IMG/VR virus record: IMGVR_UViG_3300001200_000005
Coordinates: 1 to 34,872 of that record
Strand: one strand, 5' to 3'
From: a virus
Length of the DNA: 34,872 nt
Positions 1-5,048 of the stretch are shown in pieces (the first letter of the stretch is position 1; every line of letters begins with the position of its first letter). A program made the translations under genes and the position numbers. A model generated the notes under the pieces. It ran no database searches. It worked only from the letters and a program-made list of their open reading frames with translations, and was not told where the DNA came from.

Positions 1-49
1 TAAAGTTTTATCTGTCATAATTATGAGTTAGTCTGAATGGATGGCAACG
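1..49. repeat. Terminal direct repeat, copy 1 (identical to 34824..34872); circular-assembly overlap
   Basis: The 49-nt string taaagttttatctgtcataattatgagttagtctgaatggatggcaacg occurs at both window ends. Confidence 0.95.
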
Positions 50-151
50 TTTAGCGTATGATTAGTGGCTATAATAAGCCGAAAGATTGAATTATTAACA
101 GACCCTTTTTCTTTTATTTTTTGAGCGAGGGCAAATTACGATAGTAAAATT

Positions 152-502
152 ATGATGTGTTCCTATTACAATAGTAACGAGCTTGAGAGAGCGAAAACAG
201 TTAAAGACAAAGAATTAAATGAACTTTTACAAGATGTAAGAGCCAAAGATGATAGGTATTACCTGCAAGAGCGAACGTGGATGGTAAAACGTGGATGGTT
301 TAAAAAGCCAGTTAAAAAAACAGGATATTCATTATTGTTTAATGTTGGCGGAATAGAGTGCCAAATAATAAACTTCTACCAAGACCACCAATGGTCGATA
401 AATGGAACTGTATCTAAATCTTACATACACACTCTATTCTGTGGATGGTTGAACGGATTTAAAGAAGGGGAAAAAATAAAAGAAAAAGCAAGTACGCCTT
501 AA
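152..502 (+). CDS. hypothetical protein (116 aa)
   Basis: Intact ORF in the dominant gene orientation. No recognisable motif. Confidence 0.55.
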   Translation: MMCSYYNSNELERAKTVKDKELNELLQDVRAKDDRYYLQERTWMVKRGWFKKPVKKTGYSLLFNVGGIECQIINFYQDHQWSINGTVSKSYIHTLFCGWLNGFKEGEKIKEKASTP

Positions 503-544
503 CCTTGAATTAAGCACAAACCCAAGCCATTAATTATACGCATT

Positions 545-606
545 GTTATAAACTGGTGGCTTTTATAGGGTTTGAGTGCGTACAGATTGAGCCACTTGTT
601 TATAAC
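545..606. repeat. Long imperfect inverted repeat or hairpin in a 250-bp non-coding region
   Basis: GTTATAAACTGGTGGC (545-560) pairs with GCCACTTGTTTATAAC (591-606): 16 positions with 1 mismatch and 1 G-T wobble, 30-nt loop. Confidence 0.6.
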
Positions 607-754
607 GGTTAGAGCTATAATTTCGAGCCGTAAGTACACAGCAACCACCGATATAACATTAAGTAAATAGTACAAAACTAATATTAACTTAAACACTAAA
701 TAGGCTTGAAATATAGCTAGTGTTAGCGTTTGTTTTTAATCAACAAAATACATT

Positions 755-1120
755 ATGAAAGACTGGAATGATATTTACAAATTACCAATAGCAGAAAGCT
801 ATATTGATGAAGAAGATGGATTTAGAAGTAAAAGAATATTAGATGCAAATAACAATTTTGTATTCCAATTTTTAAACGTTAAAGATTCAGCGCAAATAAA
901 TGCTTTAAACGCTATAAACGGGATAGAAAAATTAAAAGCAAAACAAGTCAAATTTAGTCATGAAGATGGAATTATACTTGCTGACAAAAACGAAGTAATA
1001 ATGATTAGGGGTTGGGGTAATTTAACAGGTATAGGTGGGCATAATTTAAGTAGTGATGAAGCTGCTAATGTGCAAGACACTTTTGCTAATTATATTGTTA
1101 GCAAACTTAATGAACGCTAA
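755..1120 (+). CDS. hypothetical protein (121 aa)
   Basis: Intact ORF with no recognisable motif. Confidence 0.55.
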   Translation: MKDWNDIYKLPIAESYIDEEDGFRSKRILDANNNFVFQFLNVKDSAQINALNAINGIEKLKAKQVKFSHEDGIILADKNEVIMIRGWGNLTGIGGHNLSSDEAANVQDTFANYIVSKLNER

Positions 1121-1132
1121 CGGTTTAGGTAT

Positions 1133-1282
1133 ATGAGTAGAAAAAGTAAAAAAAGCGGTGGAATAACACGTGTAGCAAAGGGTATAGCTTTTTCTGCTAT
1201 ACTGTTTGCGGTAATGGTATTAGTTGTTGAAAATTATAACTTTTACCATTTATTATCTGTTGAAATTCTGGAACGTTTTTGA
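1133..1282 (+). CDS. possible small membrane protein (49 aa, MSRKSKKSGGITRVAKGIAFSAILFAVMVLVV...)
   Basis: Hand-translated ATG ORF below the track cutoff, with a basic N-terminus followed by a hydrophobic segment. It overlaps the 3' end of the minus-strand ORF 1197..1439, so only one of the two may be real. Confidence 0.3.
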   Translation: MSRKSKKSGGITRVAKGIAFSAILFAVMVLVVENYNFYHLLSVEILERF

Positions 1283-1439
1283 ATTTATCAGAATACCAAC
1301 GATTTGAATTACAGGTTGGTTCTAATTGTTTAAGTGATTTGTGAAACTCACTAAAATTTGTCTCAATAATAACCACACGATTATCGAGACTGCAAGAAAA
1401 TAATTTTGTAATACGTCCATTCATAAAGCAAATATACAA
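1197..1439 (-). CDS. hypothetical protein (80 aa), opposite orientation
   Basis: ORF of non-repetitive composition. A TATATTTG motif lies on the minus strand just upstream of its ATG. Confidence 0.35.
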   Translation of the reverse strand: MYICFMNGRITKLFSCSLDNRVVIIETNFSEFHKSLKQLEPTCNSNRWYSDKFKNVPEFQQIINGKSYNFQQLIPLPQTV

Positions 1440-1466
1440 AATAAGTGCATAAAATAGAAAAATAGT

Positions 1467-1497
1467 TTTGTAGTTCTAAAATAAGTGCTTATATTTG
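1467..1497 (+). promoter_or_regulatory. Bacteroidetes-type promoter (TTTG-N19-TATATTTG) upstream of the tRNA-like gene
   Basis: TTTG at 1467-1470 and TATATTTG at 1490-1497 match the -33 TTTG and -7 TAnnTTTG consensus. The motif ends 25 nt upstream of the tRNA-like 5' end. Confidence 0.55.
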
Positions 1498-3600: not shown

Positions 3601-3650
3601 CCATAGTAAAGCGGTAGGCGGACAAAAGGCAATGTGCTGTTTTTCACAGC

Positions 3651-3698
3651 TCTTTGCCTGTGCGTTGGAAAAAGAGGGCAAAGGCTTTTACTTTTTTT
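3651..3698 (+). terminator. Putative intrinsic terminator after the 583-aa gene
   Basis: TCTTTGCC (3651-3658)/GGCAAAGG (3677-3684) forms an 8-bp stem with one wobble, followed by CTTTTACTTTTTTT. A competing upstream hairpin GGCAATGTGCTGT...ACAGCTCTTTGCC shares the TTTGCC arm. Confidence 0.45.
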
Positions 3699-3835
3699 AC
3701 TTATATACCGTGTTATGCATCTGGCGGTTTATAACCGTCCGAGTGAGTTTTCATAAAACCGCTTGTGAATAACGGATAGGCTATGCGTAGTGCCTTCTTG
3801 AAATTACGCACGAACATTAATTAAAATACAACACG

Positions 3836-4174
3836 ATGAATAAAGAACAGAACTTAGTAAAAGACCCAAAGGCATTACGTATAGGTAGTGTTATACACTG
3901 GGCGTTTAACGTAAACCAAAATATTAGGGTAAAACTTAATGATTTAGGATACCAAAGGCTTGCTGACCTACATAACGAATACATAGGCACAATACCTAAA
4001 TGGGAAAAAAGAGATGCTGAATACTACAAACGGCAAGCCGACAAAGATGGATATACACGCTTTCAATTATGGAACTTTATGGAATATTTTGGTGAGGTTA
4101 CAGGTATGTGCAAGCCTAACTATTACGACTTAACTTTCTTAATAGACACAGAAGATATTGAGCCTTGTGTATAA
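3836..4174 (+). CDS. hypothetical protein (112 aa)
   Basis: Intact ORF with no recognisable motif. Confidence 0.6.
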   Translation: MNKEQNLVKDPKALRIGSVIHWAFNVNQNIRVKLNDLGYQRLADLHNEYIGTIPKWEKRDAEYYKRQADKDGYTRFQLWNFMEYFGEVTGMCKPNYYDLTFLIDTEDIEPCV

Positions 4175-4255
4175 CGTTAAATATAAAAAGTCATTTTAAT
4201 GCTTTTTATATAGTGTTATGTGTTGTGCTTAATTTAATAACTAAAATTTACTAAA

Positions 4256-4528
4256 ATGACAGAAATAAACGAACAAAAAATAGGAGATACAAAACACGAG
4301 GTATTTACACTCTTAAATGATGGATTTCATAATGAAGAAGGTTTTACAGGATGGGTGCAAATGGAATGTAGATTATCTGATATGGAATGTGAAGGAGAGG
4401 CTTTTTTTATTAGTGTATCAGATGACAAGGTCGCTAAAAATGGAGATTACGCACCTCTAGAAATGGATAAAAAAGAACTAGAGCAGTTTATAGGTTATCT
4501 AAACAAATGTTATAAGCATATGCCGTAG
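4256..4528 (+). CDS. small acidic hypothetical protein (90 aa; 19 D/E versus 9 K/R)
   Basis: Intact ORF. Composition counted from the translation. Confidence 0.6.
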   Translation: MTEINEQKIGDTKHEVFTLLNDGFHNEEGFTGWVQMECRLSDMECEGEAFFISVSDDKVAKNGDYAPLEMDKKELEQFIGYLNKCYKHMP

Positions 4529-4569
4529 CATTACACATAACAACATTATATACCCAACTATGTAGAGGA

Positions 4570-4797
4570 ATGAAACCAACAATCACAATAACTTATACTA
4601 TTACTTACGTTATTTCTTTTGCAACTAATTATGGATTTACAAAATGTAAAAGGTGCTTCAATTTAAAAACAAACAGAGAGCTAAAACAAGTTTATAAAAA
4701 CGGAAGTATAGGGTATAATATTAACAGAAAATTTTACACTTTAAATAAGTTGCGAGCTTATTTAATTAAACCTAAAAAACACAATTTACCTTTTTAA
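4570..4797 (+). CDS. hypothetical protein (75 aa), basic
   Basis: Intact ORF. No secure motif. Confidence 0.45.
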   Translation: MKPTITITYTITYVISFATNYGFTKCKRCFNLKTNRELKQVYKNGSIGYNINRKFYTLNKLRAYLIKPKKHNLPF

Positions 4798-4810
4798 ACA
4801 AAAAACATAA

Positions 4811-4990
4811 ATGAAAGCTATTATAAGTATATTTATAACAATTATTGTAACCTTCTCCACTACTCTATTGTTTGATTGGGATTTTGTTGGTGGTCATTGG
4901 ACTAGGCAAATGCTAGTGATTTTATTGATAATTATGCAGCTATTAACATGTTTTTTTTACTTAAAAAAAGTGTATACAAAAAATAATTGA
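4811..4990 (+). CDS. small two-TM membrane protein (59 aa)
   Basis: Hand-translated ORF MKAIISIFITIIVTFSTTLLFDWDFVGGHWTRQMLVILLIIMQLLTCFFYLKKVYTKNN with two hydrophobic segments. It is below the track cutoff. Confidence 0.4.
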   Translation: MKAIISIFITIIVTFSTTLLFDWDFVGGHWTRQMLVILLIIMQLLTCFFYLKKVYTKNN

Positions 4991-5048
4991 TATATCCATT
5001 AATAAATTGTGTAAAAATTACCACATAAGCTAGATTAATTTAGCTTAT

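What the first reader, a model, noticed from the sequence alone, without database searches (positions are those of the whole stretch)
1..5048. A ~7.9 kb accessory island splits the normally contiguous large terminase - portal pair
In HK97-like siphoviruses the portal gene normally follows terL directly. Here terL ends at 32013 and the portal starts at 5049, across the circular junction. Between them lie about 20 small orphan ORFs, two reverse-oriented genes, the tRNA-like locus, the 583-aa gene, and unusually long non-coding stretches. Those stretches (503-754, 3601-3835, 32608-32931, 33657-33887, 34260-34379) carry repeats and hairpins, whereas the rest of the genome is tightly packed. This is the most likely location of novel accessory functions such as anti-defence, host takeover or ncRNAs.
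Basis: partly seen in the sequence, partly recalled or inferred. Interest (0 to 1): 0.65.

Follow-up and report, generated by a model that had tools for sequence, protein, structure and literature searches.

The report
Phage island carrying tRNA-mimic RNA–protein module
The gap between the DNA-packaging and portal genes of this temperate flavobacterial phage is a real, lineage-variable accessory island, and its main cargo is a self-contained cassette encoding a tRNA-like RNA, three structured RNA hairpins and a large uncharacterised protein that elsewhere always travel together, next to the RNA-repair ligase RtcB in bacteria and inside tRNA gene clusters in large phages.

Summary
The window is a circular assembly (49-bp terminal duplication). 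terL ends at 32013 and the portal gene starts at 5049. The DNA between them is AT-richer (30.3% vs 35.8% GC) and 73% coding, against 98% for the backbone.

Relatives found through terL have the order terL, ~80-aa gene, ~60-aa membrane gene, portal. Their gaps are 0.5-0.9 kb, or about 5 kb filled with unrelated cargo. Here 7,372 bp (32262..4810) sit between those two backbone genes.

The main cargo is a 2.58-kb cassette (1128-3709) bounded by inverted repeats and shared with unrelated phages. It holds a Bacteroidetes-type promoter, a tRNA-like RNA (1523-1634), three hairpins (1636-1839) and the 583-aa gene. The anticodon loop of the tRNA-like RNA is replaced by a conserved helix-loop motif, and the three hairpins carry the same motif. 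The motif covaries strongly and was found only beside homologues of this gene: 211 hits in 80 bacterial loci and 61 in 35 phage loci.

Bacterial copies lie beside RtcB (73/80). Copies in large phages lie inside tRNA arrays. The protein has no Pfam, PDB or Rfam-linked assignment.

I infer a ribonucleoprotein analogous to Ro60/Y RNA that acts on tRNA damage. Function is untested.

The parts
30292..32013 (+). Large terminase (left backbone anchor)
   Evidence: Pfam TerL_ATPase 1e-23 and TerL_nuclease 1e-47; phrog_9.
32013..32261 (+). 82-aa backbone gene. Its start overlaps the terL stop codon. Not part of the insert.
   Evidence: A homologue lies between terL and portal in all six relatives L001-L006 (40-48% identity).
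32262..34872 (.). Island, first half. It holds a 31-aa CxC..CxxC ORF (32251-32346), + strand ORFs of 62, 145, 66 and 123 aa, one reverse 153-aa ORF (34380-34841) and long non-coding stretches. 34824-34872 duplicates 1-49.
   Evidence: ORFs. No Pfam, NCBIfam or PADLOC hits. Duplication. Density and GC.
1..4810 (.). Island, second half. It holds 116-aa and 121-aa ORFs, the RNA-protein cassette, and 112-, 90- and 75-aa ORFs.
   Evidence: ORFs. phrog_12467 (unknown function) matches the 121-aa ORF, and phrog_5792 weakly matches the 112-aa ORF. No close relatives of the 121-aa or 123-aa ORFs in IMG/VR.
1128..1151 (+). Left arm of the 24-nt inverted repeat that bounds the cassette
   Evidence: 22/24 complementary to 3686-3709. 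Homology with L007 and L054 begins here. L054 has a different arm sequence that is again mirrored at its right end.
1133..1282 (+). 49-aa predicted membrane ORF inside the cassette
   Evidence: Shared with L007.
1197..1439 (-). 80-aa reverse ORF, transcribed divergently from the RNA/protein operon
   Evidence: 70% identical in L007. A 75-aa reverse gene occupies the same position in L054. No family hits.
1467..1497 (+). Bacteroidetes-type promoter-like site, TTTG-N19-TAtaTTTG
   Evidence: The only match to TTTG-N17-21-TAnnTTTG in the island. A TATATTTG box is conserved at the same place in L007, L014, L015 and L019. The consensus itself is from my own knowledge.
1523..1634 (+). tRNA-like RNA. 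It has acceptor, D and T arms, and its anticodon loop is replaced by the family motif in permuted order (AUC-ACUUUU-loop-AAAAGU-UCCUAUA).
   Evidence: Rfam tRNA 49.3 bits with a 44-nt insertion. ARAGORN finds nothing. The same architecture occurs in at least 62 of 80 bacterial loci and about 10 phage loci. Acceptor and T stems covary.
1636..1697 (+). Hairpin unit U1: P1, AAA bulge, 6-bp P2, then the UCCUAUA/AUU internal loop
   Evidence: R1 model 62.7 bits. The single-sequence MFE fold recovers P1 and P2.
1699..1774 (+). Hairpin unit U2
   Evidence: R1 59.5 bits.
1775..1839 (+). Hairpin unit U3. It ends just upstream of the start codon at 1849.
   Evidence: R1 59.7 bits.
1849..3600 (+). 583-aa protein with a helical N-terminal region and a TerD-like beta-sandwich. 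Proposed RNA-binding partner.
   Evidence: About 2,000 homologues and 1,403 clusters at 50% identity. AlphaFold pLDDT 89.8. No PDB match. BFVD full-length matches and a TerD-like domain match. No Pfam, PHROG or NCBIfam hit.
3686..3709 (+). Right arm of the cassette inverted repeat. It overlaps a T-rich tract that follows a 7-bp stem (3652-3658/3677-3683).
   Evidence: The stem was read by eye and was not flagged by the terminator scan.
33813..34297 (.). Second segment flanked by inverted repeats (arms 33813-33835 and 34275-34297, 91% complementary), enclosing the 123-aa ORF 33888-34259
   Evidence: The outer 12 nt resemble those of the cassette arms.
32714..32758 (+). 45-nt direct repeat, copy 1. 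Copy 2 is at 34325-34369, and a 13-nt core recurs at 4173-4185.
   Evidence: No exact-pattern match in IMG/VR.
4811..4990 (+). 59-aa two-helix membrane ORF. This is a backbone gene and the right edge of the insert.
   Evidence: Homologous to the ~62-aa ORF that follows the ~80-aa gene in L001, L003, L004 and L005 (BLASTP E 2e-7).
5049..6248 (+). Portal (right backbone anchor)
   Evidence: Pfam Phage_portal 5e-68.

Best explanation
Shown. The phage lineage has a recombination-prone slot between terL and portal. In this phage, 7.4 kb of low-GC mosaic DNA lies there, between two small backbone genes. Its one identifiable unit is a 2.58-kb cassette bounded by inverted repeats (1128-3709). The cassette has a promoter-like site and a T-rich 3' end, and it moves between unrelated phages. 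It encodes, in order, a tRNA-like RNA, three hairpin RNAs and a 583-aa protein. All four RNAs share one structured motif: helix P1, an AAA bulge, a 6-bp helix P2 ending G-U, then the asymmetric loop UCCUAUA/AUU. That motif was found only next to homologues of this gene.

Inferred. The protein binds the motif and forms a ribonucleoprotein. The tRNA-shaped RNA gives that particle a tRNA mimic. The hairpin just before the start codon may also let the protein regulate its own translation.

The proposed role rests on gene context. The pair sits in RtcB RNA-ligase operons with a WYL regulator in bacteria, and inside tRNA gene arrays in large phages. I therefore propose that it works like Ro60 with its tRNA-like Y RNA (YrlA). 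It would act as a platform that recognises or shields damaged tRNA, or delivers it for repair or decay. The phage would carry it to keep translation running when tRNAs are attacked, for example by anticodon nucleases.
For: Cassette boundaries and mobility:
- The window shares 1126-3715 with L007 (84%) and 1138-3696 with L054 (88%), and the flanks are unrelated.
- The inverted-repeat arms sit exactly at the homology breakpoints. L054 has arms of a different sequence that still mirror each other.

RNA structure:
- 52 units gave 96.9% paired cells and 171 double-change cells, against 55 in shuffles. Slid controls gave 36-52% paired.
- P1 was not used to select the units. It is 93% paired, and all five of its pairs covary.

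Specificity of the motif model R1:
- three hits in the window, all at 1636-1839;
- none in the terL relatives;
- 211 hits in 897 kb of bacterial flanks, all on the gene's strand within about 410 nt upstream;
- 61 hits in 405 kb of phage loci, all next to the gene;
- present beside the 31-35% identical homologues in the cultured cyanophages S-CRM01 and S-CBWM1.

tRNA-like RNA. Units in L030 and L027 carry T-arm-like and D-arm-like sequences inside the apical part, which I read as a YrlA-like permuted topology.

Context:
- RtcB lies within 5 kb in 73 of 80 bacterial loci, and the WYL regulator in 63 of 80.
- tRNA arrays flank the gene in many phage loci and in both cyanophages.

Protein: many basic residues are invariant or nearly invariant across the family (R184, K198, R231, K233, K240, R312, K364).
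Against: - No binding, expression or phenotype data exist. The ribonucleoprotein is inferred from co-occurrence only.
- The protein shows no detectable TROVE or vWA similarity. Rfam YrlA does not match the window. The Ro60/Y RNA parallel is therefore analogy, not homology.
- The hairpins lie in the 5' leader in most loci, so a purely cis-regulatory role is possible.
- This phage has no RtcB of its own.
- P2 pairing was a selection criterion for the units, so its 100% pairing is partly circular.
- I could not read Burroughs & Aravind 2016, so prior description cannot be excluded.
Confidence: 0.6

Rival explanations
1. The RNA elements act only in cis. The three hairpins would be a 5'-leader regulator of the 583-aa gene, either an autoregulatory operator or a ligand- or tRNA-sensing leader. 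The tRNA-like element would merely be an RNase P/Z processing signal that defines the mRNA end. No trans-acting particle would exist.
For: In most loci the units lie directly upstream, and the last one ends just before the start codon. The P1 sequence of U3 (UAGGUAAA...CACUUA) is conserved in sequence, not only in pairing.
Against: - In L033 the units lie downstream of the gene. In L042 and S-CRM01 one unit lies just downstream. In S-CBWM1 one lies 2.5 kb upstream within the tRNA array.
- The same motif is grafted into a full tRNA scaffold in both normal and permuted topologies. That is hard to explain for a leader.
- There are 2-5 tandem copies per locus.
Confidence: 0.2
2. The cassette is a selfish mobile element. 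Its inverted repeats would be transposon-like ends, and the 583-aa protein would be an RNA-guided recombinase or nuclease that uses the adjacent structured RNAs, as in IS110 bridge RNAs or IS605 omega RNAs.
For: The cassette is bounded by inverted repeats and found in three unrelated phage contexts, and the arm sequences co-vary. Structured RNA lies next to a large uncharacterised protein.
Against: - Bacterial copies occupy one syntenic position, between or beside RtcB and the WYL regulator, across dozens of Chryseobacterium species. That points to vertical inheritance.
- The repeat arms were seen only in the three closely related phage cassettes.
- No nuclease or recombinase family or fold was detected.
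- tRNA-array contexts do not fit this model.
Confidence: 0.06
3. The tRNA-like locus is a phage attachment site or tRNA remnant, or an intron-containing tRNA gene. The island would then be the integration region.
For: The phage is temperate (integrase 22260-23453, CI-like repressor). There is almost no intergenic room next to the integrase for attP.
Against: - The same tRNA-like RNA with the same insert lies in non-prophage chromosomal RtcB operons.
- The insert carries the family motif and a covarying helix.
- At about 44 nt it is far shorter than bacterial group I introns (general knowledge), and no intron family was hit.
- Both tRNA halves are present, unlike an attP fragment.
Confidence: 0.03
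4. The split is an artefact. Either the assembly is chimeric or the true genome ends lie inside the island, so that terL and portal are not really separated.
For: The 49-bp terminal overlap is an assembly feature and says nothing about the physical ends.
Against: Independent relatives also have 5-kb inserts in the same slot within single contigs. Backbone genes flank the insert on both sides. The HNH-terS-terL order places the likely cos site upstream of terS (general knowledge).
Confidence: 0.03

Closest known systems
Ro60 (Rsr) with Y RNA (YrlA) in the bacterial rsr-yrlBA-rtcBA RNA-repair operon (Chen et al. 2014, PMC4201824; Hughes et al. 2020, PMC7790460)
   Same: - A ~550-600-aa protein is encoded next to several small structured RNAs.
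- At least one RNA contains a tRNA-like domain joined to a conserved protein-associated helix.
- The genes sit beside RtcB under a ligand-sensing regulator.
- The pair is also carried by phages (PMC4201824; PMC7824862).
- Some units (L030, L027) appear to have the YrlA-type permuted tRNA topology.
   Different: - The protein has no TROVE or vWA match by Pfam, PDB sequence search or Foldseek. Its C-terminal domain is TerD-like instead.
- The RNA motif (AAA bulge, UCCUAUA/AUU loop) is not matched by Rfam YrlA.
- The regulator is a WYL protein, not RtcR.
- The tRNA-like RNA here keeps normal tRNA strand order.
Phage morons and hyperplastic regions, for example PeSL-flanked cassettes of T4-type phages (from my own knowledge: Arbiol, Comeau & Krisch 2010)
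   Same: A slot between conserved structural genes collects small, AT-rich, mostly orphan genes. These come with their own promoters and terminators and with repeated intergenic sequences, and the content differs between relatives.
   Different: The slot here lies between terL and portal of an HK97-like temperate siphovirus. Two segments are bounded by inverted rather than direct repeats.
Phage-encoded tRNAs and tRNA arrays
   Same: The tRNA-like RNA scores above the Rfam tRNA threshold. Homologues of the gene sit inside phage tRNA clusters.
   Different: There is no 7-nt anticodon loop and ARAGORN rejects it, so it probably cannot decode.
TerD-domain proteins of the tellurite-resistance (Ter) system
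   Same: The C-terminal beta-sandwich matches a phage TerD-like model (E 4.5e-5, TM 0.52 to target). The conserved acidic motifs DLDLS and SGD..E resemble TerD calcium sites (my recollection).
   Different: There is no Pfam TerD hit in any of 37 members, no Ter-operon context, and a large helical N-terminal region is present.

Membership tests
HK97-like head/packaging module | terS, terL, portal, S78 prohead protease and HK97-fold capsid in one block | tested here: met
   Pfam hits for all five. The order is interrupted only between terL and portal.
Ro60/Rsr (TROVE) protein | TROVE domain (PF05731) plus a C-terminal vWA domain | tested here: not met
   No Pfam hit in the window protein or in 37 diverse members. 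No PDB sequence hit. No Foldseek PDB hit at E<1e-3 with a pLDDT 89.8 model.
Ro60/Y RNA system | Protein gene adjacent to small RNAs that include a tRNA-like domain, within an RtcB operon | tested here: met
   Met at the level of architecture only. tRNA-like RNA. RtcB adjacency in 73 of 80 bacterial loci.
YrlA RNA (Rfam RF02553) | Match to the covariance model at gathering score | tested here: not met
   No hit in the window at E<=1. Only sub-threshold hits (40 bits against 69) elsewhere in the Aquimarina locus L008.
Canonical tRNA gene | Cloverleaf with a 7-nt anticodon loop | tested here: not met
   Rfam tRNA scores 49.3 bits, but about 46 nt lie between the anticodon-stem strands. ARAGORN finds none.
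Group I intron-containing tRNA | Self-splicing intron of roughly 200 nt or more in the anticodon loop | tested here: not met
   The insert is about 44 nt, and no intron family was matched at E<=1.
TerD domain (Pfam TerD) | Sequence match to the family; beta-sandwich with calcium-binding motifs | tested here: inconclusive
   No Pfam match. There is a structural match to a phage TerD-like model. No TerD structure appeared among the listed PDB matches.
Known anti-phage defence systems (PADLOC) | Match to a defence-system protein model | tested here: not met
   Only two weak chance-level hits (E 0.005 and 0.001).
Transposon / insertion sequence | Terminal inverted repeats plus a transposase or recombinase | tested here: inconclusive
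   Inverted repeats lie at the cassette ends, but no transposase family was found in the cassette.

The most novel reading that the evidence does not exclude
The 583-aa protein and its motif-bearing RNAs form a widespread ribonucleoprotein that has not been described. It would be a non-homologous counterpart of Ro60/Y RNA. Its binding motif can be grafted onto plain hairpins, normal tRNA scaffolds or permuted tRNA scaffolds. Flavobacteriia would use it with RtcB to handle damaged tRNA. Phages, from 35-kb temperate siphoviruses to jumbo phages and cyanomyoviruses, would spread it as a portable cassette to withstand tRNA-targeting immunity.
Probability: 0.35. Interest if true: 0.85.

Novelty: new variant of a known kind. 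Interest (0 to 1): 0.72.

Why it matters
Bacterial Ro60/Y RNA is so far the only described tRNA-mimic ribonucleoprotein tied to the RtcB repair operon, and its mechanism is still unclear. A second, unrelated protein family that has converged on the same layout would show that this layout is a general solution. That layout is a tRNA-like RNA, a conserved protein-associated helix and RtcB nearby.

It would also offer easier test systems. Chryseobacterium is culturable, and the cyanophages S-CRM01 and S-CBWM1 are in culture.

The family would give a function to a protein with more than 1,400 clusters at 50% identity and no annotation. It would also add an RNA motif that Rfam lacks.

For phage biology, the result marks the terL-portal slot of this lineage as a cargo site. 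It also points to a candidate counter-defence against tRNA-cleaving systems.

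Tried and rejected
- **First structure model.** The AlphaFold model from close homologues was poor (pLDDT 70.5) and its Foldseek search was uninformative. It was replaced by a model built from diverse representatives.
- **TROVE/Ro60 homology.** Rejected.
- **TerD by sequence.** Not supported. Only the structural similarity remains.
- **attP, tRNA remnant or tRNA intron** as readings of 1523-1634. Rejected because the same RNA occurs in chromosomal RtcB operons.
- **First repeat-extraction script.** It was one base out of register and was redone.
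- **Closer relatives of the phage.** None were found in INPHARED or JGI metagenomes (only truncated contigs). Synteny therefore rests on 43-62% terL relatives.
- **Relatives of the 121-aa and 123-aa ORFs.** None in IMG/VR.
- **The 45-nt repeat.** No exact-pattern match in IMG/VR.
- **Defence and annotation scans.** PADLOC, NCBIfam and PHROGs gave nothing usable for the small ORFs.
- **Literature.** Searches found no description of this protein or RNA pair. Burroughs & Aravind 2016 could not be opened.
- **First folding z-score script.** It timed out and was rerun with fewer shuffles.

Full report
**1. The observation**

The window carries an HK97-type packaging and head block. terS is 29848-30291, terL 30292-32013, portal 5049-6248, S78 protease 6229-6879 and the capsid gene 6872-8179. 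It also has an integrase (22260-23453), a CI-like repressor (24074-24703, minus strand), a DnaB helicase and an HNH gene next to terS. This is a temperate siphovirus.

The first 49 bases equal the last 49. The contig therefore closes on itself, with 34,823 unique bases, and the DNA after terL runs straight into the DNA before the portal gene.

The stretch differs from the rest. It is 72.6% coding and 30.3% GC, against 98.1% and 35.8% for the backbone. It holds every intergenic gap of 200 nt or more. Several gaps fold better than shuffled controls on the + strand, with z between -2.7 and -3.5. They also contain direct and inverted repeats.

**2. Is it an island?**

No close relative exists in INPHARED or with usable context in JGI metagenomes. 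Six IMG/VR contigs with 43-62% identical terL give the synteny.

- In L001, L002 and L003 the portal gene starts 0.5-0.9 kb after terL.
- In L004-L006 the gap is 5-5.5 kb. It holds different genes: DUF4406, YopX and an HNH_3 endonuclease.

All six relatives keep a ~80-aa gene between terL and portal, homologous to window 32013-32261. L001, L003, L004 and L005 also keep a ~62-aa two-helix membrane gene, homologous to window 4811-4990. The ancestral order is therefore terL, ~80-aa gene, ~60-aa membrane gene, portal. In this phage 7,372 bp (32262..34823 plus 1..4810) were inserted between those two small genes. In L004 and L005 other DNA went in on both sides of that pair.

**3. What the island contains**

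Most ORFs are short and lack family assignments. Two of them (121 and 123 aa) have no close relatives in IMG/VR.

One unit stands out. Window 1126-3715 is 84% identical to a JGI contig (L007), and 1138-3696 is 88% identical to a Logan contig (L054). The flanking genes of both are unrelated to this phage.

The homology breakpoints coincide with a 24-nt inverted repeat, 1128-1151/3686-3709. L054 has a different sequence at both ends, and its two arms again mirror each other. This is therefore a discrete 2.58-kb cassette.

A second inverted-repeat pair with similar outer bases flanks the 123-aa ORF, at 33813-33835/34275-34297.

**4. Anatomy of the cassette**

- A small membrane ORF (1133-1282) and a reverse 80-aa ORF (1197-1439) come first.
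- Next is the only island match to the Bacteroidetes promoter pattern TTTG-N19-TAnnTTTG, at 1467-1497. Its -7 box is conserved in other loci.
- About 25 nt further on is a tRNA-like sequence, 1523-1634. Rfam tRNA scores it at 49.3 bits, but 44 extra nucleotides sit in the anticodon loop. ARAGORN rejects it.
- Three tandem hairpins follow at 1636-1697, 1699-1774 and 1775-1839.
- The 583-aa ORF starts at 1849 and ends at 3600.

**5. The RNA motif**

Each hairpin is built the same way. There is an outer helix P1, an AAA bulge opposite a single C, and a 6-bp helix P2 ending G-U. Next come an asymmetric internal loop (5' UCCUAUA, 3' AUU) and a variable apical part.

Across 52 units from the window and 25 other loci, 96.9% of cells pair. 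There are 171 double-change cells, against 55 ± 10 in shuffles. Sliding the partner by 1-3 columns drops pairing to 36-52%. P2 pairing was my selection criterion, so it is biased. P1 was not a criterion. It is 93% paired, and all five of its pairs covary.

The tRNA-like RNA carries the same motif in circularly permuted order. The anticodon stem leads into AUC-ACUUUU, then a short loop, then AAAAGU-UCCUAUA. Topologically, the tRNA body sits where the apical hairpin would be.

Its acceptor and T stems covary across 24 examples. A regex finds this architecture in at least 62 of 80 bacterial loci. In L030 and L027, T-arm-like and D-arm-like sequences lie inside the apical part of a hairpin unit, which I read as the permuted topology known from YrlA.

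**6. Linkage to the protein**

A covariance model of the unit (R1) gave the following results.

| Sequence searched | Hits |
|---|---|
| Window | 3, all at 1636-1839 |
| terL relatives L001-L006 | 0 |
| 80 bacterial loci, 897 kb | 211, all on the gene's strand within about 410 nt upstream |
| 35 phage loci, 405 kb | 61, all next to the gene |
| Cyanophages S-CRM01 and S-CBWM1 | 7; six next to the 31-35% identical homologues, one 2.5 kb upstream in the S-CBWM1 tRNA array |

The loop sequence drifts as the protein diverges. It reads UCCUAUA in the close homologues, UCCUAAA in the 42% identical group, and UCCUUUA or UCCUGUU in the 30% identical group.

**7. The protein**

It has about 2,000 homologues at 60-91% identity across Flavobacteriia and 1,403 clusters at 50% identity. 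Almost all named copies are labelled hypothetical.

Nothing was found in Pfam (also for 37 diverse members), PHROGs, NCBIfam or PDB sequences.

A model built from diverse sequences is confident (pLDDT 89.8, pTM 0.88). It has no PDB neighbour at E<1e-3.

In BFVD it matches full-length uncharacterised phage proteins at E 6e-22 to 2e-13. The named ones are a Siphoviridae 'tellurium resistant like' protein, Campylobacter IBB35 and Lactobacillus LpeD. Its C-terminal beta-sandwich matches a TerD-like model (E 4.5e-5).

Invariant residues include D395, D397, S423-G424-D425 and E435 in that domain, and several basic residues in the helical part.

**8. Genomic context**

In Chryseobacterium the order is WYL regulator (reverse strand), RtcB, tRNA-like RNA, hairpins, gene. 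In Aquimarina and Algibacter the gene comes before RtcB. RtcB lies within 5 kb in 73 of 80 loci, and the WYL regulator in 63 of 80.

In phages the gene often sits inside tRNA arrays of 5-22 tRNAs within 6 kb. This includes S-CRM01 g174 and S-CBWM1 gp22. In smaller phages it appears at unrelated positions, for example after a primase-polymerase gene in L055.

**9. Interpretation**

Shown:
- the island is variable between relatives;
- the cassette is a portable unit;
- the RNAs are structured;
- the RNA motif and the protein gene are found together in every data set searched.

Inferred:
- the protein binds the motif and forms a particle;
- the tRNA-shaped RNA makes that particle a tRNA mimic;
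- the RtcB and tRNA-array contexts place it in tRNA damage handling.

The closest known system is Ro60 with Y RNA (YrlA) in the rsr-yrlBA-rtcBA operon (PMC4201824, PMC7790460), which phages also carry (PMC7824862). The resemblance is in layout and context only. Membership fails for the protein (no TROVE or vWA) and for the RNA (no YrlA match).

I put about 0.6 on the ribonucleoprotein and tRNA-handling reading. A purely cis-regulatory leader is the main rival, at about 0.2. A selfish element with an RNA-guided enzyme, an attP or intron explanation, and an assembly artefact are each unlikely. The reasons are given under the rival explanations.

**10. Novelty and limits**

Cargo slots in phage genomes are ordinary. 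The cargo here does not appear in Rfam or Pfam, nor in the literature I could search. One key survey could not be opened.

No experiment supports the function, and the host and attP are unknown. The synteny comparison rests on distant relatives.

Noticed in passing
window 33658-33731: A ~65-75-nt non-coding element (TTTTATTTTCTTCGATTAAG..CTTAATTAA..GACCTAAAGCAAT..TTATAT) is 79-85% identical to non-coding DNA in three unrelated Cellulophaga phage families: phi46:3, Nekkels and Ingeline. In each case it starts right after a small ORF. In Ingeline and phi46:3 it lies upstream of an integrase gene. It could be a shared attP core or a regulatory element, and it hints at a Cellulophaga-like host.
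   Followed up: partly
window 22219-23457: The integrase has only 40 nt upstream and 3 nt downstream of intergenic DNA. attP is therefore not in an obvious place next to it and may lie in one of the long non-coding stretches of the island.
   Followed up: no
L008 14442-17584 (Aquimarina chromosome, downstream of RtcB): About 14 tRNA genes are followed by sub-threshold YrlA-like hits (40 and 29 bits), further tRNA-like elements and a Flavo-1 RNA above its gathering score (48.5 bits). In Chryseobacterium a weak Flavo-1-like hit lies just upstream of RtcB (L010 8114-8194, 28 bits). Flavo-1 may belong to the same RNA-repair neighbourhood.
   Followed up: no
window 33813-33835 / 34275-34297: A second 23-nt inverted-repeat pair (91% complementary) flanks the 123-aa ORF. 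Its outer 12 nt (GAGATATRAATA) resemble those of the cassette arms (GGTATATRAGTA). This suggests a common boundary signal for cargo units.
   Followed up: partly
window 32714-32758, 34325-34369, 4173-4185: A 45-nt direct repeat (87% identical) occurs in two island gaps, and its 13-nt core AACGTTAAATATA recurs at the stop codon of the 112-aa ORF. No exact-pattern match was found in IMG/VR. It may be a regulatory or recombination element.
   Followed up: partly
window 26202-26855 and L005 2688-3470: The window's HNH_3 endonuclease in the early region has a homologue (38% over 89 aa) inside the terL-portal island of relatives L005 and L006. Homing-type endonucleases appear to move between these variable regions.
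   Followed up: no
window 32251-32346: A 31-codon ORF with CxC...CxxC cysteines overlaps the end of the conserved 82-aa gene by 11 nt. It was missed by the 40-aa ORF cut-off.
   Followed up: partly
L149 (S-CRM01 g174) and L150 (S-CBWM1 gp22): Two cultured cyanophages encode 31-35% identical homologues in the middle of their tRNA clusters, and the same RNA motif lies beside the gene. Two annotated 'pseudo-tRNAs' lie just downstream of S-CBWM1 gp22 and may be tRNA-like partners.
   Followed up: partly
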